A stretch of DNA of 58,385 nt, from IMG/VR virus record IMGVR_UViG_3300034104_000851, positions 1-58,385 of that record; one strand, given 5' to 3'. Source of the DNA: a virus. Its lineage: Duplodnaviria; Caudoviricetes. The notes below the pieces were generated by a model. The model had not been told where the DNA came from, ran no database searches, and was given only the letters and a program-made list of their open reading frames with translations. Below are positions 9,460 to 55,214 of this stretch, piece by piece (position 1 is the first letter of the stretch; each line of letters opens with the position of its first letter). The translations under genes were made by a program, and so were the position numbers.

Positions 9460-9465
9460 GTTCAA

Positions 9466-10954: not shown

Positions 10955-10964
10955 ATCTTATTCC

Positions 10965-13433: not shown

Positions 13434-14959
13434 CAGGCGTTTGTCCCACTAAGTATCAGTTCAGCGCCCATGATATAAATCCGTACAGGGTCTGTGCCAG
13501 ACACTTCGTAGACGCGGTCGCGTATCTTCATCGTTGCGCCAAGGCGACGCCATATTGTTCGGAAGCCAAACCGGCCAATTTTCCCCATCGACTTCCAATG
13601 TTCATTAGACCATGTATGGCCGCCGTCATCGGAAAAACGCAACATGACTTGTGGGTTATACCCCGGCGTGTCGGGATACGCCATTGTCACAAGAAAAGTG
13701 CCATCTTCTGTGGTTATGTTAACTTCCGTTTCAGTAACTAACTCTTGTTCGCCTGCGCCGGGAGACAATTCAAGTCCTACACCAGTTTCGCAGTCAAGCT
13801 GCATTGAATGTTGAATAGTGCGCGAGAGGTTGTTAGCGCCTGTTGGCAACGCGCGCCACGACCGCAGCCATTTCTGTGGTTCGCCATCGTCAGCGTACAC
13901 ATTCAAATCAAACTCGTAAATCTTGCCGTTTTCGTAGTCGCCAACAACCGTGGTATTATTAAAGAACATCTGGTTATTGGCGCGGTGACGGTTAAAATCA
14001 CCGTTAGCAAACGATGCGCGCTCATGCCACGCACCAGTAGCAACATCATACACCCATGTTGTGTCGGCGCTGGGGAAGTTTAAAACGTAAAAGCTATGGC
14101 CATCCTGCTGATATGTGTAGCCTGTCGCGTCTGAAATGTCAGCATACTCTTGCATCTGCCATTCGATAGCGTGCGTCGAAACGCGCTGTCCGATGTAACC
14201 CGCAGCTTTGTAAACAATCCCTTGACCGCGCGCGTCCCTACCTAGCCAGTAGACTTGGTTGTCCATTTTGGCGATGCTGTAAGGCGCGGCGCACCCCAGT
14301 TCGTTAAACGCACCTTGGATACGCGCCAGCGGAAAGTCGAGCAGCCCTGCGTCATACCAGACTTCGGTTGAGTTTGTGCCAAACACCCAGACTTCGCGGT
14401 GATCCACAAAGACCGCAACAACATTGTCTGGATTGCCTTCAGCGCTGGAAAATTCCAGTGGGTCAATACTGGTTCCATCAAGTAATTGCGTAACCCAGAT
14501 TTTTTGGCTGTTAGGTTCATTGAACGTAAAATATCCGTCGATGTAACCCACCGTGCCTGCGCCGGGGAAATCTGGGTCGCCAATTTGCTGAAATACGTTG
14601 GTGCTGGCGTTATAGATGTAGCCTTGCGGATTAGCCGCAATAAATAGTTGCGTTCCGTTGTCAGCCATGCTGACAGGGCCCGAACCCCCCACACTACCTT
14701 TAGCGGTTGCGTTCCAGCTGCTGTCGATCTGATACAGTGTCGGGCCTGAGACAACATAGCCGTAGCCGCCATACGTCCACATACCGCGGATAGGACCAAT
14801 GCCAACGGTAGCTAGAACAGTCAGCCCCGGCGCGCGCTGAAGAAACGCTGGCTCCTTGCCGCCTTCAGGAACGATCTCAGGAAACAAGTTAACCATGCGG
14901 TTGTTGGCGGCATTGACGCTTCTAGCGACATACGCGGAACCAAGGATGGGCGTTTTCAT
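13433..14959 (-). CDS. Tail nozzle / DNA stabilization protein, P22 gp10-like
   Basis: VNLFPE, STEVWYDAG, STHAIE, HSFYVL.FP, SDDGGHTWS motifs; 32 aa longer than copy B. Confidence 0.9.
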   Translation of the reverse strand: MKTPILGSAYVARSVNAANNRMVNLFPEIVPEGGKEPAFLQRAPGLTVLATVGIGPIRGMWTYGGYGYVVSGPTLYQIDSSWNATAKGSVGGSGPVSMADNGTQLFIAANPQGYIYNASTNVFQQIGDPDFPGAGTVGYIDGYFTFNEPNSQKIWVTQLLDGTSIDPLEFSSAEGNPDNVVAVFVDHREVWVFGTNSTEVWYDAGLLDFPLARIQGAFNELGCAAPYSIAKMDNQVYWLGRDARGQGIVYKAAGYIGQRVSTHAIEWQMQEYADISDATGYTYQQDGHSFYVLNFPSADTTWVYDVATGAWHERASFANGDFNRHRANNQMFFNNTTVVGDYENGKIYEFDLNVYADDGEPQKWLRSWRALPTGANNLSRTIQHSMQLDCETGVGLELSPGAGEQELVTETEVNITTEDGTFLVTMAYPDTPGYNPQVMLRFSDDGGHTWSNEHWKSMGKIGRFGFRTIWRRLGATMKIRDRVYEVSGTDPVRIYIMGAELILSGTNA

Positions 14960-14964
14960 GTTAA

Positions 14965-15126
14965 TCAAACACTTTCTTGTGTGTTGCCCGGCGGTTGAGG
15001 AGCATCACAAATCTCCGCAAGTTTTTCGTTCATCAAGCGCATCTGATGACGAAGCTGGATGATTTCCAAGTCGCGCTCACCAAGAGCGCGCGCAAGAGAA
15101 TCAAAATCAATCGGAAGCGGGTTCAA
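14965..15126 (-). CDS. Small coiled-coil protein, possible fibre chaperone (variant A only)
   Basis: LARALGERDLEIIQLRHQMRLMNEKL; TTG start overlapping the fibre stop (start uncertain). Confidence 0.5.
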   Translation of the reverse strand: MNPLPIDFDSLARALGERDLEIIQLRHQMRLMNEKLAEICDAPQPPGNTQESV

Positions 15127-16313
15127 TTTACCACTCTTAGGGAGCGGAACCCTACCCCGGCAGTGTCTGCTGCGTCCTGTGTAATTTGCTTGAGAGTACT
15201 TCCTACCCGTATCCACACAGGGTTATCGGCAGCCCCATCTACCCGCATTTGCTCGTTTGTGTCGACCCACAATTCTAACAACCGTCCAGTGGACGCCTGC
15301 CATTTCGTTTCGACGCGAATACCGCGCGCGGACACTTCGTTAACTGATGTAGTGAGGTAGACCATCCAGTTGTTTATCTTGCCCTCTGCCTGAAGAATTT
15401 GACGCCAGCCAGCCGACGTTGCCGTGTTGGAAGCATAAAATGCGGTGTCTGATTGCGACCCTGATGCCGCATCAGATTGCGCCCAATAAGCTGTATAATT
15501 GCTGGCACCGACCTGACCGGGGCGAAGCCCAGCAGACGAGGAGAAATTAATGACATCGACTTCAATTCCAACGACGTTTGTTGGCGCATTTCCAGAAGTC
15601 TGTGCTGCGATGATGTTGGCGCCGAACACATCCCACGGCGTAGTTCCAGCGCCCGTGTTGGTTTGCGCGATGGCGGATACACCAACCATTATTCTTTTAG
15701 ACGGATCGGCTGAAATCGGTGCATTAGTTGAATACGCGCGGAATGAAGCGCCGTTAACTTCAGCTTCACAGCCAGCTTCAGCGATATGTTCAGTTGTGAT
15801 CGCGCTAATTTTATACTCATTACCCCAAACTGATCGCGCTTGAGTTAGTGCGGTACTGTTATGAACTTCCACATAAGCGCCAGTGCGGGCATAAGACAGC
15901 GTACTGTCAGGAGTAGTAGCAGTTCCTCTGAACACCGACACACCATTTTGTGCTGCTTTAGCAAAGTTATTGGCTCCCGGCTCATTAAGCTGGCCAAGAG
16001 TCCCTTCGTAAAACCCGCCTCTTGAAATAGAGACATATCCGGGGGAAAGCATATCTCCACTAGAACCAAAAATAACCTTGGTTGTCCCTGCGCCCACTTT
16101 AGCATTAGCAAGAGTGTCGTAATCGGCAGCGTTTACCGTGCCGCGCAGTTTGGCTTGTATTGTCTGCAATACCGCACCTGTGCCAGATTGCACAAAGCCA
16201 ATAGTGGCTACACCTGCGCGTTTCGTAACGCCGTCTTGAACAACCGGCATCTCAACTGTGCTGGCCAACGGCGAAGTTGCTAAAGGAAGACCTGTAATAG
16301 TGACAGTCGGCAT
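15123..16313 (-). CDS. Accessory tail fibre/spike (variant A only)
   Basis: N-terminal motif shared with 22457..23323; FVQSGTGAV.QTIQAKL neck typical of tailspikes. Confidence 0.75.
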   Translation of the reverse strand: MPTVTITGLPLATSPLASTVEMPVVQDGVTKRAGVATIGFVQSGTGAVLQTIQAKLRGTVNAADYDTLANAKVGAGTTKVIFGSSGDMLSPGYVSISRGGFYEGTLGQLNEPGANNFAKAAQNGVSVFRGTATTPDSTLSYARTGAYVEVHNSTALTQARSVWGNEYKISAITTEHIAEAGCEAEVNGASFRAYSTNAPISADPSKRIMVGVSAIAQTNTGAGTTPWDVFGANIIAAQTSGNAPTNVVGIEVDVINFSSSAGLRPGQVGASNYTAYWAQSDAASGSQSDTAFYASNTATSAGWRQILQAEGKINNWMVYLTTSVNEVSARGIRVETKWQASTGRLLELWVDTNEQMRVDGAADNPVWIRVGSTLKQITQDAADTAGVGFRSLRVVN

Positions 16314-17023
16314 TAGTAGTTCCCTGCGTAGATGTTAAACCGCTGCCGCGAAGCGATAAGGCTGTACGGTATGGACATGATGTCATCTGGGTTGTTGATA
16401 CGTTTTATGTTACGCTTCGACGACATAGCAATGCGGCGAACCTGTGCCGATGGTTCCTCGCCAAACTCAGGTGCTAATTCGCACGCCAAGTTATAACGGA
16501 ACGCACGCAGATAGCCGGGCGGGAAATGCAGTACTGTCGCCAGCGTTGCAGGCTGAGTTAGTTCCTCAACAGAAATAAAATGCCATTCTAGATTGCGCGT
16601 CGGACGCGGATAGATGTACATCTCAATGTCGGGGAACGTCATGTTGATGAAGATGACTTGCGGGTATGTCGATGTGACGGTCTTGACCGCGATACCGTTA
16701 TACTGCTGCTGGTTGATGAATTTGATGCCGTAGCTGACGCCAGTGCCGGGGTCTTTGAAATAGGTGCTGTCATCAAGCAGCACTGGGCGGTTGCCGACAA
16801 AGTTGCCTGTTGGCCCCAGCGTGCGCGAAAGCTGACCTGACGGCCATGTAAACACTTGGTCTTGCGTCGAGTAGACCGCGAGGCGCTCAGTGTTCCAGCT
16901 ATCAATCATCTGGTTCATGGCGCGCAGTGCGTCCTGCGACGTTTCAGCCGATGGGACTTCACCTTCTGCTAGAACACCTAGCAGTCTAAGCGAACCATTA
17001 ATTATGTCACCAGCAGTTGCCAT
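16313..17023 (-). CDS. Head-tail adaptor, P22 gp4-like
   Basis: TAGDII..SLRLLGVLA.GE...LRAMNQMIDSW; YNLACELAPEFG. Confidence 0.85.
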   Translation of the reverse strand: MATAGDIINGSLRLLGVLAEGEVPSAETSQDALRAMNQMIDSWNTERLAVYSTQDQVFTWPSGQLSRTLGPTGNFVGNRPVLLDDSTYFKDPGTGVSYGIKFINQQQYNGIAVKTVTSTYPQVIFINMTFPDIEMYIYPRPTRNLEWHFISVEELTQPATLATVLHFPPGYLRAFRYNLACELAPEFGEEPSAQVRRIAMSSKRNIKRINNPDDIMSIPYSLIASRQRFNIYAGNY

Positions 17024-17026
17024 TGA

Positions 17027-17203
17027 TTAGTCTTCCTGCGCTTTGCGGCGGCTTTTGGCTACCGGCATTTCGTTGATTGACGCCTTTACAGGCACGTCAG
17101 GATTATAGCGTTCCCAGCCGAAATCTTCATCATAAATCGCTTCTTCTTCTGAAATAGCGACTTTTGCCCCGTGGACATCGTGAACAAGATAGATAACAGC
17201 CAT
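17027..17203 (-). CDS. 58-aa hypothetical protein
   Basis: MAVIYLVHDVHGAKVAISEEEA...; read manually; orthologue at 55215..55394. Confidence 0.75.
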   Translation of the reverse strand: MAVIYLVHDVHGAKVAISEEEAIYDEDFGWERYNPDVPVKASINEMPVAKSRRKAQED

Positions 17204-17214
17204 AAAAAACCTTT

Positions 17215-17240
17215 AAAAATGGACGGCCCGAAAGCCGCCC
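17215..17240 (-). terminator. Intrinsic terminator
   Basis: GGGCGGC-TTTCGG-GCCGTCC then ATTTTT; stem conserved in copy B. Confidence 0.7.
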
Positions 17241-17247
17241 AAATTAA

Positions 17248-17661
17248 TTAAACGCAGTGGATGATTGCGAAGTTAATCACTACTGCTTCTGACAGCGTAC
17301 CGCCAGAAATGTTGCGTAGGCTGATGCTGACAGAGCCAGCAGCCAAACCGTTTGCAAACACGTTGTACGATCCAGCGGTCGCTTGACCGCCAGAGATAGT
17401 AAGAATAACAGTGTCATTTGCAGAAATGAAGCTGTTGTTCAGCGTGAACGTAGCGTTAGTGGCAGTAGTCAAAGACGCGTTGTTCATAGTGATACGGCCA
17501 GCAGGCTTGTTCAGCGTAACGGCAGTTGACTTATCTGTCGCCTGCGTGACTGTACCTTGTGCTGCGGCGGTGTAGCCGAGTTGCTCGTCAGCCAAGAGAT
17601 ATTGTGCGCCAATAATATCTTGGTCTAGGAAAGCAACGCCAATAGATTTTGTATTAGCCAT
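17248..17661 (-). CDS. Putative capsid accessory protein
   Basis: Thr/Ala beta-rich (GTVTQAT.KSTAVTLN...GRITM); head operon; orthologue in B. Confidence 0.6.
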   Translation of the reverse strand: MANTKSIGVAFLDQDIIGAQYLLADEQLGYTAAAQGTVTQATDKSTAVTLNKPAGRITMNNASLTTATNATFTLNNSFISANDTVILTISGGQATAGSYNVFANGLAAGSVSISLRNISGGTLSEAVVINFAIIHCV

Positions 17662-17682
17662 TGATTTTCTCCTGAAAAGGAT

Positions 17683-17702
17683 GCCCCGACCGTAGCCGGG
17701 GC
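17683..17702 (-). other. Intergenic hairpin
   Basis: GCCCCGGC-TACG-GTCGGGGC, identical in copy B. Confidence 0.55.
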
Positions 17703-28839: not shown

Positions 28840-29102
28840 GGGCATTTCCACCTTTTCAAACTAGCTTTGGCGCGTTCGCCGTCTTTTGCCTTGGCTGCAA
28901 CAGCCCCCATGCGGGCGCAGAACGACGCTTTGCGTCCTGCGTCAGCCTTTGTCTTCGGATTCGGCGCTGGAGCCTTCAATTTGCTGCCTGTTGCAGCGTT
29001 ATATTTCGCTCTACCAGCGGCAGTCAGGCCCGCGCCCTTTGACACAGGCAACTTCTCGCCTCTGCCAACGGACAATGACACTGATTTTTTCTTGTCTGCC
29101 AC
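28836..29102 (-). CDS. Small basic protein (DUF6321-like)
   Basis: GLTAAGRAKYN..TGSKLKAP...RKASFCARM...SLKRWKC. Confidence 0.7.
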   Translation of the reverse strand: MADKKKSVSLSVGRGEKLPVSKGAGLTAAGRAKYNAATGSKLKAPAPNPKTKADAGRKASFCARMGAVAAKAKDGERAKASLKRWKCP

Positions 29103-30637
29103 TAGCTGCCCATCCAAGATGTAGAATATCCAGCGGGAGAATACCCGCTTGAGGAGCGTCTGTCAACGCGTCCTTGTCGTGGGTCTTTAGATGCTACAGG
29201 AAAGGCAAATGTCACCGCTATGGCGTCCGCTGCGTCAGGTGACGCCAGCCCGCGTGACTTCATATCTTTCTTACTTTCGAGGAACAGCGTTCCTTTACTA
29301 TCCGGCTTGGTGCGCGGGCTGATGAGGTCTGTCTTCAGGAACCTGTCGTTGGGGATGTGCGCCGTTTTGAGCCACTCACGCATGGCGCCCCACATCTCCG
29401 CGCGCTTGTTGCCCCACATGATCTGGTTCTTGGCTTTATTGCCGAAGTTCACGCCGCGTATCTTGTACCGCTGCTCTTTCAGCCGGTCTACGACGCCTGC
29501 GCCTAACCCGCCTTCGTCGATGCACACCAGCGCCGGCTTGAACTGCTCTATGGCGTCGATGACGTAGCCAGCCACTTCCATTGTGTCAGCGCCGCGGTGC
29601 CTGCGTAACTCTAGGATGTCACGGCCCTGCCGTATGGCGATGACGGTAGCATCTGCCCCGAAGCGTGCAGGGTCTACCCCTATGACGATGGGCGCGCTGT
29701 CGTCCTTGATGGGTGGCCGCTTCATGGCGTCATCGACCAGATTGCTGCCAATGAACTGATCGTCACCTTCGCTGGGGAAGTTACCGTAGACTTCGACACT
29801 GGCTTGGTAGCTGTCTGGCCCGTATTCATCTATGATGCGCTGGTACAGGTTTTTGTCTGTACCCTCGACATCGCGGGCGTCGATTGTGCGTGTTGTCCAG
29901 AACGCCCGCTTGCTGTGGAACGTCTCGTAGAAATAGCCTGTGTTACGCCGCGGGTTGGAGAAGGCCAGATGGAAGCGGTGCGGTGTATTCTCTGTGAAGA
30001 AACCATCGCTCACCGACCAGATTGAGTCTGGAATACCGCTGGCTTCGTCGAAGATCAGCATCACACCGTCGAAGTTGTGGACACCTGCGTAGGCGTCAGG
30101 GTTCTCTTCCGACCACAGCCGGCCTTCGACTGACCAGTAGCGCGTGCCTTTCTTCAGGTCACGCTCGACCAGTTCCGTCAGCCACTTGGCTGGCATGATG
30201 CGTGTGGCGGCTATCTCGAACCAGTGACTGTTGAGCGACATCGCCAGCCACTTGGTAATTTCTGCCCATGTTACGCTACGTAGCTGCGCTTCGGAGTTTG
30301 CCGACACGATGGTGGTCGAGCCGATTCTGCTGGAAAGCATCCATATCGTGAGCCATGACACCAGCGCCGACTTACCAATACCGCGTCCTGACGCAATCGC
30401 CAGTCGCGCCGTGTCGAAGTCAACCTTGCCGTTGTTCGCTTTGATGTGGTCACGCAAGTCGCCAAGTATCTGGCGCTGCCATTTGCGCGGTCCGGGGAAA
30501 TGTTCCAGCGGTGTGCCTGCTTGGCCCCACGGGAATGTATACAGCACAAATGCTAGGGGGTCATCCTTCAGACTGGGCGACCACAGCCGCGCCATCAACT
30601 CCATCTCGTCTTGCGCTGAATATATCGGCTGCTGCAT
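29102..30637 (-). CDS. terL: Terminase large subunit
   Basis: Walker A SGRGIGKS, Walker B LIFDEASG, FSNP coupling motif, nuclease IGVDPARFGAD and SPDAADA. Confidence 0.95.
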   Translation of the reverse strand: MQQPIYSAQDEMELMARLWSPSLKDDPLAFVLYTFPWGQAGTPLEHFPGPRKWQRQILGDLRDHIKANNGKVDFDTARLAIASGRGIGKSALVSWLTIWMLSSRIGSTTIVSANSEAQLRSVTWAEITKWLAMSLNSHWFEIAATRIMPAKWLTELVERDLKKGTRYWSVEGRLWSEENPDAYAGVHNFDGVMLIFDEASGIPDSIWSVSDGFFTENTPHRFHLAFSNPRRNTGYFYETFHSKRAFWTTRTIDARDVEGTDKNLYQRIIDEYGPDSYQASVEVYGNFPSEGDDQFIGSNLVDDAMKRPPIKDDSAPIVIGVDPARFGADATVIAIRQGRDILELRRHRGADTMEVAGYVIDAIEQFKPALVCIDEGGLGAGVVDRLKEQRYKIRGVNFGNKAKNQIMWGNKRAEMWGAMREWLKTAHIPNDRFLKTDLISPRTKPDSKGTLFLESKKDMKSRGLASPDAADAIAVTFAFPVASKDPRQGRVDRRSSSGYSPAGYSTSWMGS

Positions 30638-31058
30638 GTGTGTTATCCTCTAGCTGGGGCAGTTCAGTGTACAGCCCCTCGATGACGCGCGACTGTGCTT
30701 TTTCCAGCGCGCCTGTAATGCTTATCTGTTGGTCGATGTTCACGTCGATCTGCTGCTTGGCTACCCAGCCGTGCTGATGCTTGAGTATCTCCAGCGCAGC
30801 CTTGCTGTCGCCATCGCGCGCCGCTTCGTACATGGTCTTAGCCGACACGTACTCGCCATCGGCACGACCTTTGATTTCGGCCATCTCGACCAGCGGATCA
30901 GCGTCGGCCAGCACGCGGTATTGCCGCGGGGTTAATCCAGCGGCCATAGCGAGACTGTCACCCTTCAGGCCGTAACGCGCTGCTTCATAGATCGCCTCTA
31001 GCCGCGCCTCGGTGGCCTGCGTCCGCTCTGGTGTAAATGGCAGTGAGTAGAAAGTCAT
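30561..31058 (-). CDS. terS: Terminase small subunit
   Basis: HTH-like N-terminus, upstream of terL; start MTFYSLP fits the promoter spacing. Confidence 0.75.
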   Translation of the reverse strand: MTFYSLPFTPERTQATEARLEAIYEAARYGLKGDSLAMAAGLTPRQYRVLADADPLVEMAEIKGRADGEYVSAKTMYEAARDGDSKAALEILKHQHGWVAKQQIDVNIDQQISITGALEKAQSRVIEGLYTELPQLEDNTHAAADIFSARRDGVDGAAVVAQSEG

Positions 31059-31065
31059 TGGGCGT

Positions 31066-31094
31066 ACTATAGTGTGTTGCATTTTAATTTGCAA
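31066..31094 (-). promoter_or_regulatory. terS promoter, probably leaderless
   Basis: TTGCAA-N17-TATAGT-N7-ATG with an upstream T-tract. Confidence 0.7.
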
Positions 31095-31100
31095 AAAAAA

Positions 31101-31200
31101 TAAAAATTGACGCGGGCCGGGCTGCTTACCGGAGTGCGTTTGGCTTTTGCGCGAAAATCCAAAAACCTCAACAGACATCTAATCTGCGCCGCCGCGTCAA
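31101..31200 (-). ncRNA. Putative cloverleaf-like ncRNA
   Basis: 9-bp terminal stem TTGACGCGG/CCGCGTCAA enclosing three hairpins; own promoter; followed by a T-tract. Confidence 0.55.
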
Positions 31201-31205
31201 AACAA

Positions 31206-31233
31206 ATAGTATGTGGTCGGGGATATTTTGCAA
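31206..31233 (-). promoter_or_regulatory. Promoter for the putative ncRNA
   Basis: TTGCAA-N16-TACTAT; -35 and upstream tract duplicate those of the terS promoter. Confidence 0.6.
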
Positions 31234-31436
31234 ATAAAAAAAATTGTTTGCGACCCATGCCCGTGACAGTCACGCGGCGCTCGGCCCTCCCACCCCCACC
31301 CCCCTGCCAGCAGCGTTCTAGCTTTGTTCTATAGCGTAGATTCTGGGTTGGCCTTTTCCTTTACGTCAACGTCAACGTAGCGAAAAAACATATTGCTGGC
31401 TGGCTATGCTGCGGTGCAACATTTTGCATGGGCGTT

Positions 31437-31877
31437 CTAGGCTATGCGATTGCATGTCATGACTGCGTAAATCATGACGCCATGACTGCGTAGGTCATGA
31501 CCGATTTGCGTAGTCATGACTGCGTGGTCATGACAGGGAAAGTTTACAATTGTTAAACATCTAGGCGATCTAGGCAATCGATTTGGGAGTCGTTCTCTAG
31601 AAAGTTATATTTTAACCATATAGGTTAATTATATACTTTTCTCAAACTGACTTAACATTCCATAGCCTAGATAGCCTAGAATCCTCGGCGAAGCGCAGAA
31701 ACCCTTGACTTTTTCCTAGGCAATTTAGCCCATTTTCATAGCCTAACAAATGACTATTTCGCCTAACTTTTCGCCTAACAATTTTCGCGCCAAATATCGC
31801 TTGGCAAAAATAGTCATTTTCTAGGCTATCAGTTAGGCTATCATTTTAGGCCAAATGACTATTTTAAGAGGGCCTAA
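31437..31877. repeat. About 13 YTAGGC/GCCTAR iterons and three AAATGACTATTT boxes around an AT-rich core; candidate origin or genome-end region
   Basis: 31560-31578 and 31662-31680 are 17/19 inverted repeats flanking the AT-rich 31600-31640. Confidence 0.7.
31456..31534. repeat. Six CATGAC units (four as the palindrome GTCATGAC) interspersed with TGCGT
   Basis: Direct reading. Confidence 0.9.
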
Positions 31878-44088: not shown

Positions 44089-44216
44089 CAGACCATGCAG
44101 CGGCGACCGCTGAAGCACTGGAAATGGTGATTGCCATGCTAAAGGCAGGGCAATCACCTGAAGACTTAGGCCCGATGGTTATACTGATCGGGCGTATGAT
44201 GGCTAGGCGAACCTAA
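44085..44216 (+). CDS. 43-aa hypothetical protein (B)
   Basis: Orthologue of 3602..3733. Confidence 0.75.
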   Translation: MTDHAAATAEALEMVIAMLKAGQSPEDLGPMVILIGRMMARRT

Positions 44217-44380
44217 GCTAAGTATTGCGACAGCGCCGTAGCGGCTGCGCCGATGATGGCGAGTACGCCGGCCAGCTTGGCTTTCCAACCAAGGGCAGGC
44301 TTCGGCGCTTCGTCCATCGGCAAGATTTTACCGGCGACTTCTTTCACGGCAATTTTCGTGATGAGGTTCTTCAAGTTCAT
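44213..44380 (-). CDS. Small protein with C-terminal TM, lysis-associated
   Basis: AAGGAG RBS; KLAGVLAIIGAAATAL; follows the endolysin. Confidence 0.65.
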   Translation of the reverse strand: MNLKNLITKIAVKEVAGKILPMDEAPKPALGWKAKLAGVLAIIGAAATALSQYLA

Positions 44381-44390
44381 GTTACTCTCC

Positions 44391-45002
44391 TTACAGCCAA
44401 GAAGCATATTTCTTGGTTTTCAGTTTGCGGTCGTCGAGTCCGTGTGTACCACCATTTATCCGCTTTGTCAGTGCAAGGATTGTAGCGTCATTGACGCCTT
44501 GGTCACAGATACCCCAAAGCTTGTTCTTGTCGAAGAACCAAAGGGCGCTTTCAAAGGCCAGTTCGGTAGCCACCAAATCGGGGTTCGTCATCACATCGGG
44601 GCGACCGATATAGTCGGAGAACGCCTTGAAATTAAATTTGCCCGTCAATTGGAGACTGCCGCGGCCACGAAAAAGCCAGCCTTCGCCTGACGCTTCGTCG
44701 CCATTGCCCATGCGGTTGGCGTAGACGCGGTTGGCAATTTTCATCGGCTGGCGTTCGTAAGCGCGGGCCAGTGCATCGGTCGGGAAGTACTTACCAAAGA
44801 TGCCGCGCAGACCCTTCGCGCTGTAGTTCAGGTTCTCGCTGAACGCCTTGAAGCCGCCCGACTCATGCGCCGTTTGAGCAAAGAAATGTGCAGCCCGATC
44901 AGGTGATAATTTATAAAAAGCCGCAGCCGCCTTAAATGTACCCGGACCAAATGCACCATCAGCGGTCACCCCTATCTTTTTCTGTAGATTTACAAGGCTC
45001 AT
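44391..45002 (-). CDS. Endolysin, glycoside hydrolase family 19, with short PG-binding N-terminus
   Basis: FFAQTAHES, ENLNYS, FRGRGSLQLTG..N, TKRINGG..GL.DR; LQ..IGVTADG.FGPGT. Confidence 0.9.
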   Translation of the reverse strand: MSLVNLQKKIGVTADGAFGPGTFKAAAAFYKLSPDRAAHFFAQTAHESGGFKAFSENLNYSAKGLRGIFGKYFPTDALARAYERQPMKIANRVYANRMGNGDEASGEGWLFRGRGSLQLTGKFNFKAFSDYIGRPDVMTNPDLVATELAFESALWFFDKNKLWGICDQGVNDATILALTKRINGGTHGLDDRKLKTKKYASWL

Positions 45003-45496
45003 TTACCCGCACTCCGCCAAGCAGGGAAGTCGTTTTCGTCGACCACACCGTCGCCGGTGACGTCGTAGCGCAGGTCGTTGCGGTACTTCTCCCAAGGTGC
45101 CATGTCGTCGTCATCGTCTTCTTCAGGCTCGTCAATGAAGACAGTGGCTTGCGGATCGTCGTACACCTTCGGCGCCATCGCTGGCGTCAGTTCAAGCGGC
45201 GCTTCTGGCTCTGGCGCCGGCGCAGGCTCAGGGTCGGTGTCACGCGCATTGGCGTTGAGGCTCAGGCCGCCCAGCAGTCCGACAAGCGCACCGATGATGG
45301 TCTGGAACGCAGGGTTAATCATCTCAAGGACGGCAGTGCTGTCCACGACATCGTTAGGCACGAACATGCCGACGACCAGCGCCAGCACGACGACAAGGAT
45401 AACTGCCGACAGCGTGACGATTGCCACGCGAACGACAAACTCAACGGTGTCGTTGACGCCGTCGTGCTTGCTCTCAAAACTATTCAGGAAGCTCAT
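44999..45496 (-). CDS. 2-TM membrane protein with acidic tail and EF-hand-like loop
   Basis: Two TM segments; DVTGDGVVDEND. Confidence 0.7.
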   Translation of the reverse strand: MSFLNSFESKHDGVNDTVEFVVRVAIVTLSAVILVVVLALVVGMFVPNDVVDSTAVLEMINPAFQTIIGALVGLLGGLSLNANARDTDPEPAPAPEPEAPLELTPAMAPKVYDDPQATVFIDEPEEDDDDDMAPWEKYRNDLRYDVTGDGVVDENDFPAWRSAGK

Positions 45497-45758
45497 CTTC
45501 TTCGTCCTTCTTCTTTTGCATAGCGCCGCTGCCCTGCCCCGCCATAAGTCCTGCCAACGCCCCGACAATGAACGTTGCTATCGGGTTAATCAACTTGAAA
45601 AACTCAGCGTCGTTAGGGGACTGCCCTTCCATCGGCTGCGACACAAACACCAACGAGTATAGCACGGTCGCCACGATGAACGTCAGCGTCAGCGACAGGA
45701 CGATCCCGACGATGAACCGCAGCAATTCCTCCGGCGTCCATTCACTTCTCGGCTTCAT
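45480..45758 (-). CDS. 2-TM holin-like membrane protein
   Basis: Two TM segments; INP...FIVGALAGL resembles the downstream gene. Confidence 0.7.
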   Translation of the reverse strand: MKPRSEWTPEELLRFIVGIVLSLTLTFIVATVLYSLVFVSQPMEGQSPNDAEFFKLINPIATFIVGALAGLMAGQGSGAMQKKKDEEDELPE

Positions 45759-45927
45759 CTTCTTCACCTGTATTGATTAGCCATTCGGTGCAGTAGCCCA
45801 TAGCGATGCACCGCGGCTTCTTGCAGAGTTCGTCTTCCCAATTCGCAGGGTCTTGACAATCGTAGCGGTAGCGGTCTTCGCAGCCAGCAAGCACCAGCGC
45901 CGCCAGTAGTAGACTGACTATACGCAT
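45742..45927 (-). CDS. Small Cys-rich lipoprotein
   Basis: Lipobox LAGC; RYRY.CQDP.NW...C..P.C...G.C. Confidence 0.75.
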   Translation of the reverse strand: MRIVSLLLAALVLAGCEDRYRYDCQDPANWEDELCKKPRCIAMGYCTEWLINTGEEDEAEK

Positions 45928-45934
45928 ACGCCCT

Positions 45935-46114
45935 CTAGCCGGCCTTTTGCAGCACGTTCATGAGTATGCCGACCAGCAATACGATGATTGTGCCGGCGGA
46001 AGTCATGCCGACTTTTTCAATACGCTTCATCCGCGCGCAGATACTCTCGTACCGGAACGCGCAGACCTGTTCGTGCGTGTTAAGTTGCGCTTGTGTTTCG
46101 TCGATAGTAGCCAT
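45935..46114 (-). CDS. Coiled-coil plus TM protein (B)
   Basis: Orthologue of 6002..6172. Confidence 0.75.
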   Translation of the reverse strand: MATIDETQAQLNTHEQVCAFRYESICARMKRIEKVGMTSAGTIIVLLVGILMNVLQKAG

Positions 46115-46116
46115 TG

Positions 46117-48537
46117 TTAGCGTCTCATGGAGTTAAGGTTTTGAAACCGTTTATCTTTAGGTATCCTGCCGTATATCGGTACGGGGTAGCCTTCAGAAAA
46201 GTCAACATCTACCAGCGGTTCGCCGGTTTCAGGATCAAAGTCAGGGAACTTAAATTCTTCGCCCAGCGTCTGCGGCGTGATGCCTGCCACACCTGTCTGC
46301 ACCACGGCTTGCTGTCTGGCGGCAGACGGCGCCTGCGAACCATACAAAAGTTTGTTTACATATTCTTCAGCGGGGCGCACTCGTAACAACTCGCCCGCTT
46401 GGCGCGGAGACGCCAACGCAGGAACTAAGTTACGCATGGTGTTCTCCGATGCTTTTTGCGCCGCCCGCACACCAAATTCTTGCGCCGCGATGCCGCCGCC
46501 GTAAACGTGCGGTAGACCACCCAATACACGGGCGCCTGCCGTGAAGACGTTTGGCACGGTCGGCTCCAACATACCGCCGACATTAGTCGTAATACCTTGC
46601 TTAAATGAAAGACGCTGCGACTGAGGTAAATCCTCAAGGCCCGTCTGCGACACGGCACGTTGCGCTTCAATATCGCGGCCCAGCTTATTAGCCGTAGCTA
46701 AATCCGCGCCCTGCATTTCTACGTTGATATCGAATCGACCCGGACCTAACTTGCTTTCGACAAAGTCGGGGTCTTCGCCAGCCATTACTTTGGCAAATCT
46801 TGCTTCAGGCAGCTTGGCAAGTTCACGCTGAAGCTGTTGGCGCTCGATACCTTTCATGCCTTCGGCAAAGGTATTTAGGTAGTTTTTCCAACCCACGCCG
46901 CCTGCCGCTTCAATGGCTTCATCGATTGGCTTTTGTGCGGCTGCGATAAGTTGAGATGTCCCCGCACGTAATGCTTTAGGGTCGGTCGTGCCTAAGATGC
47001 TGGACACAAACGCGCCCATTTCGCGGCGTGCCAAGTTAATTCCTTGGGCATCAATGACGCCACCAAACTTAGCTGCGCGGCGCTCCAGATTGTTTGCGAA
47101 CTCCGACAATATTTTAAAACGGTCAGGGCTGACAAACTGCGCCTTATCCGCTTCTGCGCGTAAGTTAGTTACGACCTGTGAAATATCCAGTGGCGCCAGA
47201 CCTTGCGCGCGCAAGTTAGCCGCGACTTCTTCTGCTGATCGGGCGTCTTCCAGATACTGACTTATACGAGCATCAAAGTTCGGGTCATTCATATACCGCG
47301 CTGCTGAGTCCAGTTCAGATTGCAACGCAGATCGCGCGCGGGCAGCGGCTTGCTCAGATGGAATGATTTGTGTGCGCCCAATATCGGCAGCGCCTAACGC
47401 TCGTTCGCGCATCGGGCCTGTTACATCCTGCAACGCCCTTTTAGTTTCCGCTATGTTGCTAACAGCTTCTGTTTGCGTTCCGCCGCCGCTGATAACCTCA
47501 CGCATACGTTTTTGTCCCGCGGCGCGCTGTTTCGCTACGCGGAGAAGCGGGGCTGCTTCGGTGCTTGCACTAGCAATCTGGGTAGCCGCAGCCAGTTCAG
47601 GCGTGAGCAATCCCCGCGACGCCAGAAACTCAGCCGTATTGGCTTTGATATTCTTCGGTGCGTTTCGCAGTGCCTTTTCAATTTTGGTTGCGTTCTGGTC
47701 AATTACCTCGCGCAAGATTTCAGCAGCGCGGACGGCGCCAGCGCGGCCAGCTAGGACATCATATGTTTTGCCTGCGCCAAACTTGAGCATGTGGCCGAGG
47801 ACAGGCACAGTAGCGCCAGCCAACGCTGCATCTGTCAAATCTTGATCGGTAGCGGCAGCAGCTATAAGGCTTGAAATAGCGCCGCCAGCAGCACGAAGAC
47901 CGACACGCGCTTTGCGTGATCCGGCTATAATCTTGCCTTCTTTTACTGCCGCCTTAGTTGGTTTAGCTACTCGCGTGCCGCCAGACGTTATAGCGCGGCC
48001 AGTTTTTTCTATTACGCCGCCTAACCGCGGCGCAACTTTGGTAAGTGCCCTACCGCCAAGCTGCGTGACAGCGCCGCCGCCCATCGTGAGCGGAAGTGCC
48101 CCGGCAATTTCACCACCGAGTTTGCCGCCAGCAAAGGTGACGGGGTTCGCCTGTTGCCGTTCAGCAGCAAATTGCGCTAATCGCTTCTTGGTTTTATCGG
48201 ACGCACCTACTGGAATATATTCTAAAGGGTTAAGGTAAGATAGCTTTTCAGCAATCGGTTTCAGCCCGCGCTCAACCCCAGATACAGCAGACGCAATCTT
48301 ACTACCAGTGGCGCGCAGCGCACTTTTCTCGTCCGCACGCTGTTTCGCTTGCTGCCGTGTGTAACGCTCTTTAGATGTTTCGACGTTAAACCGACGCCGA
48401 ATTTCAGCCTGCGTAGCAGGACTTGCACTGCGGTACTCTGGCAGCGTAGCCACACGGCGATCAAAGATAGCCTGCTTTGTAGCTGGATTAGCGTTTACGT
48501 AGTTCGGGTCTTTTAAAATATCCAGCGCGCTAGACAT
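46117..48537 (-). CDS. Ejection protein 3 (B)
   Basis: Synteny; 806 aa; no evident similarity to the A counterpart. Confidence 0.65.
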   Translation of the reverse strand: MSSALDILKDPNYVNANPATKQAIFDRRVATLPEYRSASPATQAEIRRRFNVETSKERYTRQQAKQRADEKSALRATGSKIASAVSGVERGLKPIAEKLSYLNPLEYIPVGASDKTKKRLAQFAAERQQANPVTFAGGKLGGEIAGALPLTMGGGAVTQLGGRALTKVAPRLGGVIEKTGRAITSGGTRVAKPTKAAVKEGKIIAGSRKARVGLRAAGGAISSLIAAAATDQDLTDAALAGATVPVLGHMLKFGAGKTYDVLAGRAGAVRAAEILREVIDQNATKIEKALRNAPKNIKANTAEFLASRGLLTPELAAATQIASASTEAAPLLRVAKQRAAGQKRMREVISGGGTQTEAVSNIAETKRALQDVTGPMRERALGAADIGRTQIIPSEQAAARARSALQSELDSAARYMNDPNFDARISQYLEDARSAEEVAANLRAQGLAPLDISQVVTNLRAEADKAQFVSPDRFKILSEFANNLERRAAKFGGVIDAQGINLARREMGAFVSSILGTTDPKALRAGTSQLIAAAQKPIDEAIEAAGGVGWKNYLNTFAEGMKGIERQQLQRELAKLPEARFAKVMAGEDPDFVESKLGPGRFDINVEMQGADLATANKLGRDIEAQRAVSQTGLEDLPQSQRLSFKQGITTNVGGMLEPTVPNVFTAGARVLGGLPHVYGGGIAAQEFGVRAAQKASENTMRNLVPALASPRQAGELLRVRPAEEYVNKLLYGSQAPSAARQQAVVQTGVAGITPQTLGEEFKFPDFDPETGEPLVDVDFSEGYPVPIYGRIPKDKRFQNLNSMRR

Positions 48538-48541
48538 ACTA

Positions 48542-50326: not shown

Positions 50327-50329
50327 GAT

Positions 50330-51079
50330 TTATCCGTCGTCTGAAATGAGGCCGTAGGGTCCGCCGCCGCCGCTACCGGGCGTTCTGTTTTTATAGTACT
50401 GCATAATGGCGTTGTTCATAGGCGCGTTGGATGCGTATCCACCTATCTGACCCAACGCGTTTGTCAGCGCATTAGCAGAGCCGATGTAGCCAGATGCGCG
50501 GGCTTGGCCTGCATTATAGATGTTCGACGCTTGGTTCTGGCCCATCTGTCCAGCAGCGCCAGTCATCACGTTGGTGGCGGACTGACCTGAACCCATCAGC
50601 GATTGCAATGGATTAAGGCGCGCCGACCGCTCAACCTGATAACGGTTAAATGCGTTCTGATATTCTTGGCTGGCTAAATCTTGGCCGAAACGCTGCACGC
50701 CCTTCAAGGTGGAGCCGGACAGCAGATTGCCGCGTGCGGCTGCCGACCGCTCTAGCGCCTTCATGCCTTCCGCTTGACGGAAAGCATAGCCGGGGTCTTG
50801 CTGAAATTGATCAGTACCAAAGGCTTTCGCCATGCTGCCGTAGCCAGCGGCGGTCTTGTCGCCGCCGATGCCCAGAAGCTGCATAATCTCATTTTGCGCC
50901 GTCATCCCGCCTTGGCGAAACGGCTCTTGCAGTTCAATCTGCCGCTGGAACATGCGCTCCTGTGCAGCGTTAGCGTCTTGCGACGCCTGAACCTGCGCCC
51001 TAGACGCTTTTTTAGATGCCTTGCTGGAAATTACCGCGCCGCCAACTGCGGCTGCTGCGGTTACTGCGGCTGCGACCAT
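50330..51079 (-). CDS. Ejection protein 1, gp7-like (B)
   Basis: Core nearly identical to A; ATG at 51079 preferred over TTG at 51091. Confidence 0.8.
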   Translation of the reverse strand: MVAAAVTAAAAVGGAVISSKASKKASRAQVQASQDANAAQERMFQRQIELQEPFRQGGMTAQNEIMQLLGIGGDKTAAGYGSMAKAFGTDQFQQDPGYAFRQAEGMKALERSAAARGNLLSGSTLKGVQRFGQDLASQEYQNAFNRYQVERSARLNPLQSLMGSGQSATNVMTGAAGQMGQNQASNIYNAGQARASGYIGSANALTNALGQIGGYASNAPMNNAIMQYYKNRTPGSGGGGPYGLISDDG

Positions 51080-51080
51080 G

Positions 51081-51536
51081 TCAATCCCCAATCCATTTCG
51101 TGTAGTAAATCTCTACAGGTTCCATTTTCAAATACTCAAACAGCCTAGATGCGTCCTTGTGCATTTTGGAGCCGTAGAACATACGATGCACCCCGCGCCT
51201 TTTAGCTTCTTTTTCGACTAAACGAAAGAGTTTTACGCCGCTAAATCCACCACGCACATCTGGGTGCGTCCAAAAGATGTCCATCGTCAGCGTCAGGCAC
51301 GTCTTGTAGTGAAAGCCCGGCGCGATGAAACCTATGAAATATCCCACTAAACGGCCAGCTTCGCGCAGCGTAACCAGCAACAGTTGTCCTGCGTTGTCGC
51401 GCGCTTCGTACAGATCATACTGCGGATCAAGCGGTACTTTATCTTTGTTTAGCGCCAATTCTTCCCAGTGAAGGTCGTAGCACTCCATCAATTCTGGCAA
51501 ACATTTGCTGTAAGGCTCGACTTGTGCCGTAATCAT
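51081..51536 (-). CDS. GNAT acyltransferase
   Basis: GRLVGY...DIFWTHPDVRGGFSGVKLF..VEKEAK.RGV...LFEYL. Confidence 0.8.
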   Translation of the reverse strand: MITAQVEPYSKCLPELMECYDLHWEELALNKDKVPLDPQYDLYEARDNAGQLLLVTLREAGRLVGYFIGFIAPGFHYKTCLTLTMDIFWTHPDVRGGFSGVKLFRLVEKEAKRRGVHRMFYGSKMHKDASRLFEYLKMEPVEIYYTKWIGD

Positions 51537-52413: not shown

Positions 52414-52423
52414 ATCTGGTTCC

Positions 52424-55211: not shown

Positions 55212-55214
55212 TGG

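What the first reader, a model, noticed from the sequence alone, without database searches (positions are those of the whole stretch)
31101..31233. Self-contained cloverleaf ncRNA cassette upstream of terS
Seen on minus: promoter TTGCAA-N16-TACTAT; start at about 31200; 9-bp closing stem; arms GCAGAU/GUCUGU (G-U pairs favour this strand), UUGGAUUUU/AAAAGCCAA and CCGG/CCGG; then UUUUUAUUUUUUUU. It is tRNA-sized but lacks the TTC loop and a 7-nt anticodon loop. It contains GCACUCC, complementary to GGAGUGC at the RBS of 32393 and to GGAGUG at 31956 and 32776. Known: P1 C4 and P4 CI are small structured RNAs that regulate by antisense pairing. Inference: a second regulatory RNA, a tRNA mimic, or a packaging-linked RNA.
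Basis: partly seen in the sequence, partly recalled or inferred. Interest (0 to 1): 0.7.

Follow-up and report, generated by a model that had tools for sequence, protein, structure and literature searches.

The report
Swappable small-RNA cassette upstream of terS
A roughly 139-base promoter, hairpin and T-run module has been inserted just upstream of the DNA-packaging genes of an uncultured lake-water phage, at a site where related phages carry other small structured-RNA modules or homing-endonuclease genes; it is probably a small accessory non-coding RNA gene, not a tRNA mimic.

Summary

**What the cassette is**
- It is a real insertion of about 138-139 nt compared with the closest relatives.
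- It sits in a hotspot between a conserved T-tract and the terS promoter.
- It is flanked by a duplicated T-tract plus TTGCAA.
- It is identical in 4 other records, although their flanks differ by 5-20%.

**What else occupies the hotspot**
- Among 97 distinct relatives' hotspot sequences, 58 have only the promoter.
- 11 carry named cassettes: 5 B, 3 C, 2 A+B and 1 D.
- 3 carry HNH endonuclease genes.
- Cassette B also occurs in an unrelated phage lineage. There it lies behind a canonical promoter and again upstream of a terS-position ORF and terL.

**Support for an RNA**
- A 9-bp closing helix abutting a T-run is unique in the window; 4 of 100 shuffles produce one.
- Folding is stronger on the sense strand (z -1.76) than on the antisense strand (z -0.50).
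- No ORF is conserved across the copies.

**Not supported**
- The cloverleaf is 7 kcal/mol worse than the rod-like minimum-free-energy fold.
- ARAGORN and Rfam find no tRNA or C4-like match.
- The proposed antisense targets are at chance level.

**Limits**
- All copies are identical, so no covariation test is possible.
- No RNA contig covers the cassette.

Best reading (0.5): a stand-alone RNA of about 95 nt, carried as RNA cargo on a PeSL-like recombination cassette. Its function in trans is unknown.

The parts
31234..31250 (-). Distal copy of the boundary element (CAAACAA plus T-tract). It is conserved in all relatives and forms the left edge of the hotspot.
   Evidence: direct repeat D8 with 139-nt spacing
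31206..31233 (-). Promoter P1. The -35 TTGCAA (31233-31228) is a duplicate of the terS promoter's -35. The 16-nt spacer and the -10 TACTAT (31211-31206) are specific to the cassette.
   Evidence: It matches the consensus at 8 of 12 positions and was not listed by the scan. Function is inferred.
31107..31200 (-). Body of the predicted RNA of about 95 nt. The predicted +1 is G31198, 7 nt after the -10. The closing helix pairs 31200-31192 with 31115-31107. The interior folds as an irregular rod in the minimum-free-energy structure.
   Evidence: It is identical in L082, L083 and L173 and in a contig of DNA run X2.
31093..31106 (-). T-run TTTTTATTTTTTTT. It is the presumed terminator tail of the cassette RNA and also the proximal copy of the boundary T-tract (UP-like) of the terS promoter.
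31066..31094 (-). Promoter P2 of terS: TTGCAA, 17-nt spacer, TATAGT. It is conserved in relatives. The -10 ends 7 nt before the terS ATG, which implies a leaderless mRNA.
   Evidence: (9 of 12 positions)
30561..31058 (-). Putative small terminase gene, assigned by position only because it overlaps the start of terL (29102-30637). The start MTFYSL is conserved.
   Evidence: terL; no PHROG or Pfam family for this protein
31131..31137 (-).
   Evidence: The motif is present, but its complementarity is at chance level and is not linked to the presence of the cassette.

Best explanation
The segment is an accessory 'RNA moron': a cassette of about 139 bp that was laterally acquired and lodged in a recombination hotspot. 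The hotspot lies between a conserved T-rich tract and the promoter of the apparently leaderless terS-terL late operon of an uncultured lake-water phage of about 40 kb. I saw no phage RNA polymerase among the 10 proteins I scanned, so host RNA polymerase is assumed.

**Proposed mechanism**
- Host sigma-70 RNA polymerase starts at P1. P1 combines a duplicated T-tract and TTGCAA -35 with the cassette's own spacer and TACTAT -10.
- The start falls at about G31198, which is the first base of the GC-rich closing helix.
- Transcription produces a highly paired RNA of about 95 nt.
- The RNA is released at the closing helix plus U-run (31106-31093).
- That same T-run doubles as the upstream tract of the regenerated terS promoter P2, so late-gene expression is left intact.

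**Proposed mobility**
- The cassette moves between co-infecting relatives by homologous recombination between the repeated T-tract/-35 boundary sequences. This is like the PeSL cassettes of T4-type phages.
- Double-strand breaks made by the HNH endonucleases that occupy the same site in other relatives may help this along.

**What is shown and what is inferred**
- Shown: the insertion polymorphism, the flanking duplication, identity across diverged backgrounds, the non-chance helix plus T-run, the strand bias of folding, and the lack of a conserved ORF.
- Inferred: promoter activity, termination, and the existence of a discrete RNA.
- Unknown: the function in trans. My guess is a host-directed or competitor-directed role, such as a decoy or counter-defence RNA or a regulator, rather than control of the phage's own early genes.
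For: **1. It is an insertion.**
- The distance from the conserved GGCCAACC anchor to the terS ATG is 295 nt in the window.
- It is 157-158 nt in the closest relatives (L004, L015 and others), which have an identical P2.
- A 20-nt direct repeat at 85% identity lies 139 nt apart.

**2. It sits in a hotspot.** I examined 169 loci, which gave 97 distinct hotspot sequences:
- 40 basic, promoter-A type
- 18 basic, promoter-B type
- 23 with 85-110 nt
- 5 with cassette B
- 3 with cassette C
- 2 with A+B
- 1 with cassette D
- 3 others over 110 nt, of which L020 and L164 carry HNH_3 genes
- 2 without an anchor, of which L009 also carries an HNH_3 gene

**3. It is identical across diverged backgrounds.**
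- The 100-nt bins that hold the cassette show 0-1 differences.
- The flanking bins show 5-10 differences per 100 nt in terS and 7-20 per 100 nt upstream, comparing the window with L082 and L083.
- A contig of the separate lake run X2 covers 30815-31287 with no differences.

**4. The structural signal is real but modest.**
- The 9-bp helix abutting a T-run is unique in the window; 4 of 100 shuffles produce one.
- The closing helix has pair probability of about 1.0.
- The sense strand folds at -34.4 kcal/mol (z -1.76, 10 of 200 shuffles as good). The antisense strand folds at -29.3 kcal/mol (z -0.50, 57 of 200).

**5. Sister cassettes share the design.**
- Cassettes B, C and D all have a -10-like hexamer, a closing helix and a T-run.
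- Their sense-strand z-scores are -2.08, -2.05 and -2.48.
- The B core of about 68 nt differs at no more than about 2 positions between copies, while its 13-15-nt leader is highly variable.
- B also occurs in unrelated phages L188 and L189. There it lies behind TTGACG-N17-TATAAA, with the helix starting about 7-10 nt after the -10, upstream of a 201-aa ORF and a terL of a different family (phrog_38, E 1.6e-105).

**6. It is non-coding.**
- The ATG at 31178 has no Shine-Dalgarno sequence.
- By my reading of the sequences printed, the frame ends differently in the three contexts: fused to terS in the window, stopped after 28 codons in L040, and out of frame in L007.
- Pfam finds nothing in the 40-aa extension.

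**7. There is a precedent for the mobility.** PeSL composite promoter/terminator cassettes mediate insertions and deletions between close T4-type phages (PMC2839356, abstract and section 13 read; PMC4122927, abstract read).
Against: - **No covariation test is possible.** All 5 known copies (the window, L082 = L007, L083 = L040, L173, and the X2 contig) are identical. The identity could reflect very recent transfer of a neutral sequence rather than selection.
- **The folding signal is weak on its own.** The z-score is -1.76, and I chose the boundaries to include the helix.
- **The regulatory elements are not strong matches.** P1 matches the consensus at only 8 of 12 positions. No canonical compact terminator hairpin precedes the U-run (0 found). 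A closing helix that spans 76 nt is an unusual terminator.
- **No known family matches.** Rfam gives nothing at the gathering threshold or at E<=10.
- **No diverged homologue turned up.** Model R1 found none in 0.91 + 0.46 Mb of related loci. Four exact-pattern scans of viral contigs found none. One metagenome scan and one genome scan found none.
- **The B variant in L188 folds poorly** in isolation (z -0.19).
- **Most relatives lack a cassette.** 58 of 97 distinct hotspot sequences have only the promoter, so whatever the cassette does is dispensable.
Confidence: 0.5

Rival explanations
1. The cassette is purely cis-regulatory, like a PeSL proper: a duplicated promoter plus a long stem-loop and T-run. 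Its only role would be to stop transcription arriving from the upstream non-coding region (for example from the promoter-like site at 31369-31340) before the late operon, and/or to add a second promoter. On this reading the 76-nt interior is stuffer and the RNA has no function in trans.
For: - The only statistically solid structural features are the closing helix plus T-run.
- The interior arms are poorly determined, with pair probabilities of 0.04-0.29.
- PeSL stem-loops act as terminators or attenuators upstream of promoters (PMC2839356, section 13).
- Short hotspot inserts of 35-38 nt that only duplicate the T-tract exist in many relatives.
- A promoter-like site lies upstream on the same strand.
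Against: - A terminator does not need a 76-nt interior or its own -10 placed so that the start falls exactly at the helix.
- The interior of sister cassette B is conserved while its leader varies freely. B also stands as its own promoter-driven unit in unrelated phages.
- The T-tract is already present in relatives that lack a cassette.
Confidence: 0.28
2. The cassette is a neutral recombination scar: leftover ends of a lost moron, or a by-product of illegitimate or HNH-stimulated recombination at the T-tract. It would be recent and would have no function at either the RNA or the DNA level.
For: - It is rare: 2 of 97 distinct hotspot sequences plus the window.
- The lack of any sequence variation fits a recent origin.
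- The hotspot also holds short duplications and HNH genes.
Against: - The helix plus T-run is unlikely by chance.
- Folding is strand-biased.
- The cassette has spread into backgrounds that differ by 5-20% and is present in a separate run, X2.
- No longer element with matching ends turned up in the promoter-segment scan.
Confidence: 0.12
3. This is the first reader's version: a cloverleaf tRNA mimic and/or a C4/CI-like antisense RNA whose GCACUCC pairs with the ribosome-binding sites of early genes at 31969, 32393 and 32789.
For: - The arms and the motif exist in the sequence.
- In the cloverleaf the GCACUCC motif would be single-stranded.
- GGAGTG-N7-ATG occurs at 3 early genes and at 45015(-). 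That is 4 of the 11 GGAGTG sites that lie outside the cassette.
Against: - The cloverleaf is 7.3 kcal/mol less stable than the minimum-free-energy fold, with ensemble probability of about 2e-7.
- ARAGORN finds nothing and Rfam gives no tRNA or other relevant hit at E<=10.
- The longest complementarity to the rest of the window is 12 nt, which 67 of 200 shuffles reach.
- GGAGTG ribosome-binding sites are as common in relatives without the cassette. 39 of 53 such loci have at least one, and the cassette-bearing L040 has only one.
Confidence: 0.05
4. The region is coding: either terS starts at 31178, giving a 205-aa protein, or the cassette encodes a peptide of about 28-40 aa.
For: An open frame runs from ATG 31178 into terS.
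Against: - The tblastn matches of the 391 relatives begin at residue 1 of the 165-aa form.
- The extension is absent from the closest relatives.
- There is no Shine-Dalgarno sequence.
- The frame ends differently in L040 (stop after 28 codons) and L007 (out of frame), by my reading of the sequences.
- Part of the 'protein' is a translated T-run (FLFFLQIK).
- Pfam gives no hit.
- An open 40-codon stretch has a chance probability of about 0.15 by my arithmetic, (61/64)^40.
Confidence: 0.03

Closest known systems
PeSL (promoter-early stem-loop) mobile regulatory cassettes of T4-type phages (Arbiol et al. 2010, PMC2839356; Comeau et al. 2014, PMC4122927)
   Same: - Both are composite elements with an AT-rich tract, a sigma-70-like promoter and a stem-loop.
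- Both are repeated at the borders of insertions and deletions between closely related phages.
- In both, recombination between the repeats swaps the cargo.
- In both, the stem-loop is proposed to terminate upstream transcription.
   Different: - The phage here is about 40 kb and unrelated to T4, with a single hotspot rather than about 50 dispersed sites.
- The cargo is a small non-coding hairpin RNA, or other small RNAs, rather than an ORFan.
- The stem-loop is a 94-nt structure that lies between two promoter copies.
Morons of lambdoid and other phages (promoter, gene and terminator inserted between conserved genes).
   Same: It is an autonomous transcription unit that is present or absent among close relatives and is inserted between conserved modules without disrupting them.
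   Different: The cargo is an RNA, not a protein gene. The phage shows no integrase or lysogeny evidence in the parts I examined.
P1 C4 and P4 CI antisense immunity RNAs
   Same: They are small structured phage RNAs of similar size.
   Different: - No Rfam hit at E<=10.
- No target complementarity beyond chance.
- The cassette is not part of an immunity region.
- It is dispensable in most relatives.
Phage RNA-based counter-defence and RNAs sensed by defence systems: Racr solitary-repeat RNAs (PMC10651486) and cabRNA from terminase genes (PMC10686824). I saw only the starts of their abstracts in the search listings.
   Same: They are small or structured phage RNAs with their own expression. cabRNA maps to the terminase region. 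Accessory, strain-variable loci are where such functions usually sit.
   Different: - No CRISPR-repeat match was found: 0 of 401 sampled genomes, and 8 single chance hits to the 19-mer.
- The RNA is about three times as long as a repeat unit.
- There is no evidence of any link to a defence system.

Membership tests
tRNA / tRNA-like | Cloverleaf recognised by tRNA finders and covariance models (7-bp acceptor stem, T-loop, 7-nt anticodon loop) | tested here: not met
   ARAGORN finds 0 genes in the window and 0 in 10 related loci. Rfam gives no tRNA hit at E<=10 on 30800-31700. The cloverleaf is 7.3 kcal/mol above the minimum-free-energy fold.
Any curated Rfam family (including C4 antisense RNA, phi29 pRNA, riboswitches, ribozymes) | Covariance-model score at or above the family's gathering threshold | tested here: not met
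   0 matches at the gathering threshold over the whole window. Only chance-level miRNA, snoRNA and sRNA hits at E 0.13-5 in 30800-31700.
Trans-acting antisense regulator of the phage's own genes | Complementarity to a target beyond chance | tested here: not met
   The longest complement is 12 nt, and 67 of 200 shuffles reach 12 or more. GGAGTG ribosome-binding sites are not associated with the presence of the cassette.
Intrinsic (Rho-independent) terminator | GC-rich hairpin immediately followed by a U-run | tested here: inconclusive
   A 9-bp GC-rich helix directly abuts TTTTTATTTTTTTT. However, the helix encloses 76 nt, and the scan that requires a loop of 3-8 nt found none.
PeSL-like composite promoter/terminator recombination cassette | AT-rich tract plus sigma-70-like promoter plus stem-loop, repeated at the borders of insertions and deletions between close relatives | tested here: met
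   The T-tract plus TTGCAA is duplicated on both sides of the insert. The same boundary flanks cassettes B, C and D and the mini-inserts. The stem-loop is present. Promoter and terminator activity were not tested.
PeSL-like composite promoter/terminator recombination cassette | Member of the T4-type phage family of motifs (sequence homology, hyperplastic regions) | tested here: not met
   The gene content I scanned (DNA polymerase, primase, helicase, exonuclease, a 746-aa portal, terL) and the unit length of about 40.7 kb are not T4-like. The comparison is by analogy only.
Moron | Autonomous promoter-cargo-terminator unit that is present or absent between conserved genes in close relatives | tested here: met
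   Presence/absence polymorphism is shown. The promoter and terminator are inferred from sequence only. The cargo is RNA rather than a protein gene.
MITE / small transposable element | Terminal inverted repeats plus a target-site duplication, and multiple copies at different loci | tested here: not met
   Every copy found is at this one hotspot. This holds for the four viral-contig scans, the metagenome scan and the model R1 searches. The insert also extends 43 nt beyond the inverted repeats.
Protein-coding extension of terS | Conserved open frame and start | tested here: not met

The most novel reading that the evidence does not exclude
The site just upstream of terS may be a swap locus for a set of unrelated, undescribed structured small-RNA genes: A of about 95 nt, B of about 68 nt, C of about 76 nt and D of about 166 nt. 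Each has its own -10 element, a closing helix and a U-run, and none matches Rfam. They alternate with HNH homing endonucleases at the same site. At least one of them, B, has been exchanged between unrelated phage lineages and sits in both directly before the terS-terL operon. On this reading they form a class of phage accessory RNAs tied to the start of the packaging/late module. Possible roles include RNA decoys or counter-defence RNAs, or RNAs that act on terminase or late transcription. Cassette A would be a rare allele of this class.
Probability: 0.3. Interest if true: 0.75.

Novelty: new variant of a known kind. Interest (0 to 1): 0.5.

Why it matters
Accessory hotspots in phage genomes are where counter-defence and host-takeover functions are usually found, and almost all known cargo there is protein. 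If cassette A is what it appears to be, this is a hotspot whose alternative alleles are small structured RNAs. It also has a clear recombination mechanism, because the T-tract/-35 boundary repeats regenerate the essential terS promoter after every swap.

That gives concrete candidates for new phage RNA functions in abundant, uncultured freshwater phages: A through D, with B being the best supported. The finding also suggests that PeSL-like modular shuffling operates outside T4-type phages.

For cassette A alone the practical value is modest until expression is shown.

Tried and rejected
- **Rfam.** No hits at the gathering threshold on the window or on 20 related loci. E<=10 searches on the cassette A region, the cassette D region and the B region of L188 gave nothing relevant.
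- **ARAGORN.** Nothing in the window or in 10 related loci.
- **GenBank phages.** The 4-kb neighbourhood gave one 73% terL match only. The cassette in 'distant' mode gave no match.
- **Expression.** RNA runs X19, X22 and X23 held only small shares of the stretch, and their contigs do not cover 30870-31379. These are contigs, not reads, so this says nothing either way about transcription.
- **Diverged homologues of A.**
  - Four exact-pattern scans of viral contigs returned only the two known contigs.
  - The metagenome scan with the closing-helix pattern returned 6 stretches. Five are one unrelated coding sequence and one is L173, which carries A+B.
  - The genome-contig scan with the 19-mer returned 8 single hits in unrelated taxa with no flank similarity.
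  - Model R1 found only the known copies, plus weak hits at E 0.99-6.
- **RNA duplex scan.** The RNA.duplexfold scan of the RNA against the window gave unrealistic long-loop duplexes, so I discarded it.
- **CRISPR-repeat idea.** The 29-nt central arm resembles a CRISPR repeat only from recall. 0 of 401 sampled genomes of one phylum match at up to 3 mismatches. That is a sample, not evidence of absence.
- **Cassette D elsewhere.** The scan found only the two known contigs.
- **Host identity.** I could not establish it.
- **Paper supplements.** None were consulted. Supplementary figure S1 of PMC2839356, which holds the PeSL reporter data, was not seen.
Full report
**Context.** The window is an IMG/VR virus record of 58,385 bases. 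It holds about 1.4 units of two related variants of a phage genome of about 40.7 kb (long direct repeats 38.2-41.5 kb apart at 73-98% identity). Around the finding, the minus strand carries terL (29102-30637; PHROG terminase large subunit). A 165-aa ORF (30561-31058) overlaps its start, and I call it terS by position only. It has no PHROG hit at E<=1e-5 and no Pfam hit better than E 0.13. Upstream lies a 910-nt non-coding region full of short repeats, followed by small genes on the plus strand from 31969. Of the 10 proteins I scanned, the replication set comprises a DNA polymerase, primase, helicase and exonuclease. No phage RNA polymerase was among them. The other ORFs were not scanned, so dependence on host RNA polymerase is an inference.

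**Checking the observation.** Arm 2 has one A.G mismatch.

The strongest feature is the 9-bp helix TTGACGCGG/CCGCGTCAA, which directly abuts TTTTTATTTTTTTT.
- A perfect helix of 8 or 9 bp spanning 40-120 nt and abutting a T-run occurs only here in the whole window, on either strand.
- It turns up in 4 of 100 (9 bp) and 11 of 100 (8 bp) block-shuffled windows.

The remaining features are weaker.
- The TTGCAA...TANNNT pattern is no more frequent than chance: 2 found against 2.69 expected.
- P1 matches the consensus at 8 of 12 positions and was not listed by the promoter scan. That scan did list the downstream TTGCAA-N17-TATAGT at 9 of 12.
- No compact terminator hairpin was found.

The cloverleaf is not the favoured fold.
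- Using only valid pairs it scores -27.1 kcal/mol, against -34.4 for an irregular rod.
- Its ensemble probability is about 2e-7.
- Arm pair probabilities are 0.04-0.29, while the closing helix is about 1.0.
- The 94-nt RNA has z = -1.76 (10 of 200 shuffles fold as well). Its complement has z = -0.50 (57 of 200).

**What relatives show.** The terS protein has 391 relatives in viral contigs, of which the best 80 were fetched. All 80 match from residue 1 or nearly so, so terS starts at 31058 and not at 31178.

Aligning the upstream regions shows that the finding is an insertion.
- The conserved GGCCAACC anchor lies 157-158 nt from the ATG in the closest relatives, and 295 nt away in the window.
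- Relatives such as L004 and L015 have exactly the same downstream promoter and ATG context (TTGCAAATTAAAATGCAACACACTATAGTACGCCCAATG). They lack the 138-139 nt in between.
- The insert is bracketed by two copies of the T-tract plus TTGCAA(A): a 20-nt direct repeat at 85% identity, 139 nt apart.
- The cassette therefore brings its own spacer, -10, hairpin and T-run, while both junctions keep their original neighbours.

**The hotspot.** A second scan with the 25-mer that spans the promoter and the terS start fetched 88 more stretches. Over the 169 loci I examined there were 97 distinct hotspot sequences, not counting the window:

| Hotspot content | Distinct sequences |
|---|---|
| Basic, promoter-A type | 40 |
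| Basic, promoter-B type | 18 |
| 85-110 nt (mostly duplications of 35-38 nt that include the T-tract, or longer promoter-B variants) | 23 |
| Cassette B | 5 |
| Cassette C | 3 |
| Cassettes A+B in tandem | 2 |
| Cassette D | 1 |
| Other, over 110 nt (L020 and L164 carry HNH_3 endonuclease genes; L073 does not) | 3 |
| No anchor (L009, also with an HNH_3 gene; L045, truncated) | 2 |

The HNH_3 assignments come from Pfam, E 2e-12 to 3e-16. Each of cassettes A to D ends with its own T-run, followed by the next promoter.

**Copies of cassette A.** Cassette A is found only in the window, in two IMG/VR contigs (L007 = L082 and L040 = L083), in one JGI metagenome contig (L173), and in a contig of the separate lake DNA run X2. 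All copies are identical apart from the length of the T-run. By contrast, the flanks of the window, L082 and L083 differ by 5-10 per 100 nt in terS and by 7-20 per 100 nt just upstream. This points to recent lateral spread, purifying selection, or both. It also rules out any covariation test.

**Sister cassettes as a guide.** Cassettes B, C and D share the same layout: a -10-like hexamer, a closing helix, then a T-run. They have sense-strand z-scores of -2.08, -2.05 and -2.48. The antisense z-scores are -1.05 for B (measured on L188) and -0.35 for C; D antisense was not folded. I chose the boundaries to include the helices, so these values are somewhat flattering. The B variant in L188 on its own gives z = -0.19.

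Cassette B is the most informative.
- Its core of about 68 nt differs at no more than about 2 positions among 9 copies, while the 13-15 nt between the -10 and the helix is highly variable.
- The same core occurs in two contigs of a different phage lineage, L188 and L189.
- There it lies behind a canonical TTGACG-N17-TATAAA promoter, with the helix beginning about 7-10 nt after the -10, and is followed by a U-rich stretch and another promoter-plus-terminator unit.
- In L189 it again sits upstream of a 201-aa ORF of unknown family and a terL of another family (phrog_38, E 1.6e-105).

So at least one hotspot cargo behaves like a real, laterally exchanged small-RNA gene. This raises the prior for A but does not prove it.

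- *tRNA mimic.* ARAGORN finds nothing in the window or in 10 related loci. Rfam finds nothing at the gathering threshold and only chance-level hits at E<=10.
- *Antisense control.* GGAGTG occurs 12 times in the window (8 on the plus strand, 4 on the minus), counting the cassette's own complement. Four of the other 11 are ribosome-binding sites with identical N7-ATG spacing. However, neighbouring early genes show that this is just the local Shine-Dalgarno flavour, AGGAGT(G/T).
- I examined 55 related loci with at least 2.5 kb upstream. Of the 53 without cassette A, 39 have at least one GGAGTG-N7-ATG. Of the two with A, one has 3 and the other has 1.
- The longest perfect complement between the RNA and the rest of the window is 12 nt, which 67 of 200 shuffles reach.
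- *Coding.* The frame from 31178 has no Shine-Dalgarno sequence. It is fused to terS only in the window, stops after 28 codons in L040, and is out of frame in L007 (my reading of the sequences). The extension has no Pfam hit.

**Most likely mechanism.** By analogy with the terS promoter, where the -10 ends 7 nt before the ATG in the main promoter variants, P1 would start at G31198, the first base of the closing helix. The transcript would fold into a GC-closed structure and end in the U-run, giving an RNA of about 95 nt. The same T-run then serves as the upstream tract of the regenerated terS promoter.

Movement of the cassette is best explained by homologous recombination between the repeated T-tract/-35 boundaries. 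This matches what has been described for PeSL composite promoter/terminator cassettes in T4-type phages, which have an AT-rich tract, a sigma-70 promoter and a stem-loop, and where recombination between PeSLs creates insertions and deletions (PMC2839356, abstract and section 13; PMC4122927, abstract). HNH endonuclease genes at the same site could supply the breaks that drive gene conversion, but that is inference.

What the RNA does in trans is unknown. Control of the phage's own genes is not supported. A host-directed or competitor-directed role is a guess based only on where such variable cargo usually acts.

**Rivals.** The main rival is a purely cis-acting terminator/promoter (PeSL-type) cassette with a stuffer interior (0.28). 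The others are a neutral recombination scar (0.12), the tRNA-mimic or antisense version (0.05) and coding (0.03).

**Novelty and score.** No known RNA family matches. The recombination logic has a published precedent. RNA cargo at a single hotspot just before terS, with alternative RNA alleles and HNH genes, is a new variant of a known kind. I did not search the literature for this specific arrangement beyond, none of which listed it. Cassette A itself remains a rare, invariant element whose expression is unproven, so I score interest at 0.5.

Noticed in passing
window 1-17700 vs 40672-58385: The record holds about 1.4 genome units. Its two ends are related but not identical copies (73-98% identity, offsets 38.2-41.5 kb). 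This suggests either a chimeric assembly of two strain variants or tandem related genomes.
   Followed up: partly
window 31056-31094 (-) and all related loci: terS looks leaderless. In the promoter variants of the relatives (TATAGT, TATTGT, TAGTAT types) the -10 hexamer ends 7-8 nt before the ATG, which leaves no room for a Shine-Dalgarno sequence.
   Followed up: partly
window 31285-31304 (-): The G-run GGGGGGTGGGGGTGGGAGGG has four G-tracts and is G-quadruplex-like. It is conserved with small variations in the relatives, just upstream of a short hairpin and the T-tract. A near-identical GGGGGGTGGGGGTG also lies in the non-coding region of the unrelated phage L188 (about 4009-4022).
   Followed up: no
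window 31430-31860: There are dense iteron-like repeats: GTCATGACTGCGT in at least 3 copies, and members of the TCTAGGCTAT/ATAGCCTAGA family in both orientations. This is probably an origin or a regulator-binding region between the early and late modules.
   Followed up: no
L188 4431-4500; L189 3680-3757 (-): The cassette B core of about 68 nt lies in an unrelated phage lineage. It sits behind TTGACG-N17-TATAAA and is followed by a second small promoter-plus-terminator unit. In L189 a 201-aa ORF and terL (phrog_38) come next. L188 also has an ORF with an HNH-type CxxC...H motif between the RNAs and the late genes. I judged that ORF by eye and did not scan it.
   Followed up: partly
L039 2773-2938 (also L041, L138, L156): Cassette D is a 166-nt element with an 11-bp closing helix and a GAAA-tetraloop hairpin. 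Its minimum free energy is -62.8 kcal/mol with z -2.48 (3 of 200 shuffles as good). Rfam gives no hit at E<=10 apart from a chance 21-nt match.
   Followed up: partly
L009 2528-3001; L020 1675-2085; L164 804-1253: HNH_3 homing-endonuclease genes occupy the same hotspot directly upstream of terS. In L009 the gene runs right up to the terS ATG and replaces the promoter.
   Followed up: partly
window 31066-31094 (-): The terS promoter contains a second TGCAA(C) box 8 nt after TTGCAA; in relatives the arrangement is TTGCAA-N6-TTGCAA. A TGCAA-N4-TTGCA palindrome lies near 31410-31430. This may be a regulator site. P1 of the cassette lacks the second box.
   Followed up: no
window 11155-11706 and 11800-12540: There are internal tandem repeats of 276 nt and 441 nt (77-81% identity) inside the 822-aa ORF at 10965-13433.
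   Followed up: no
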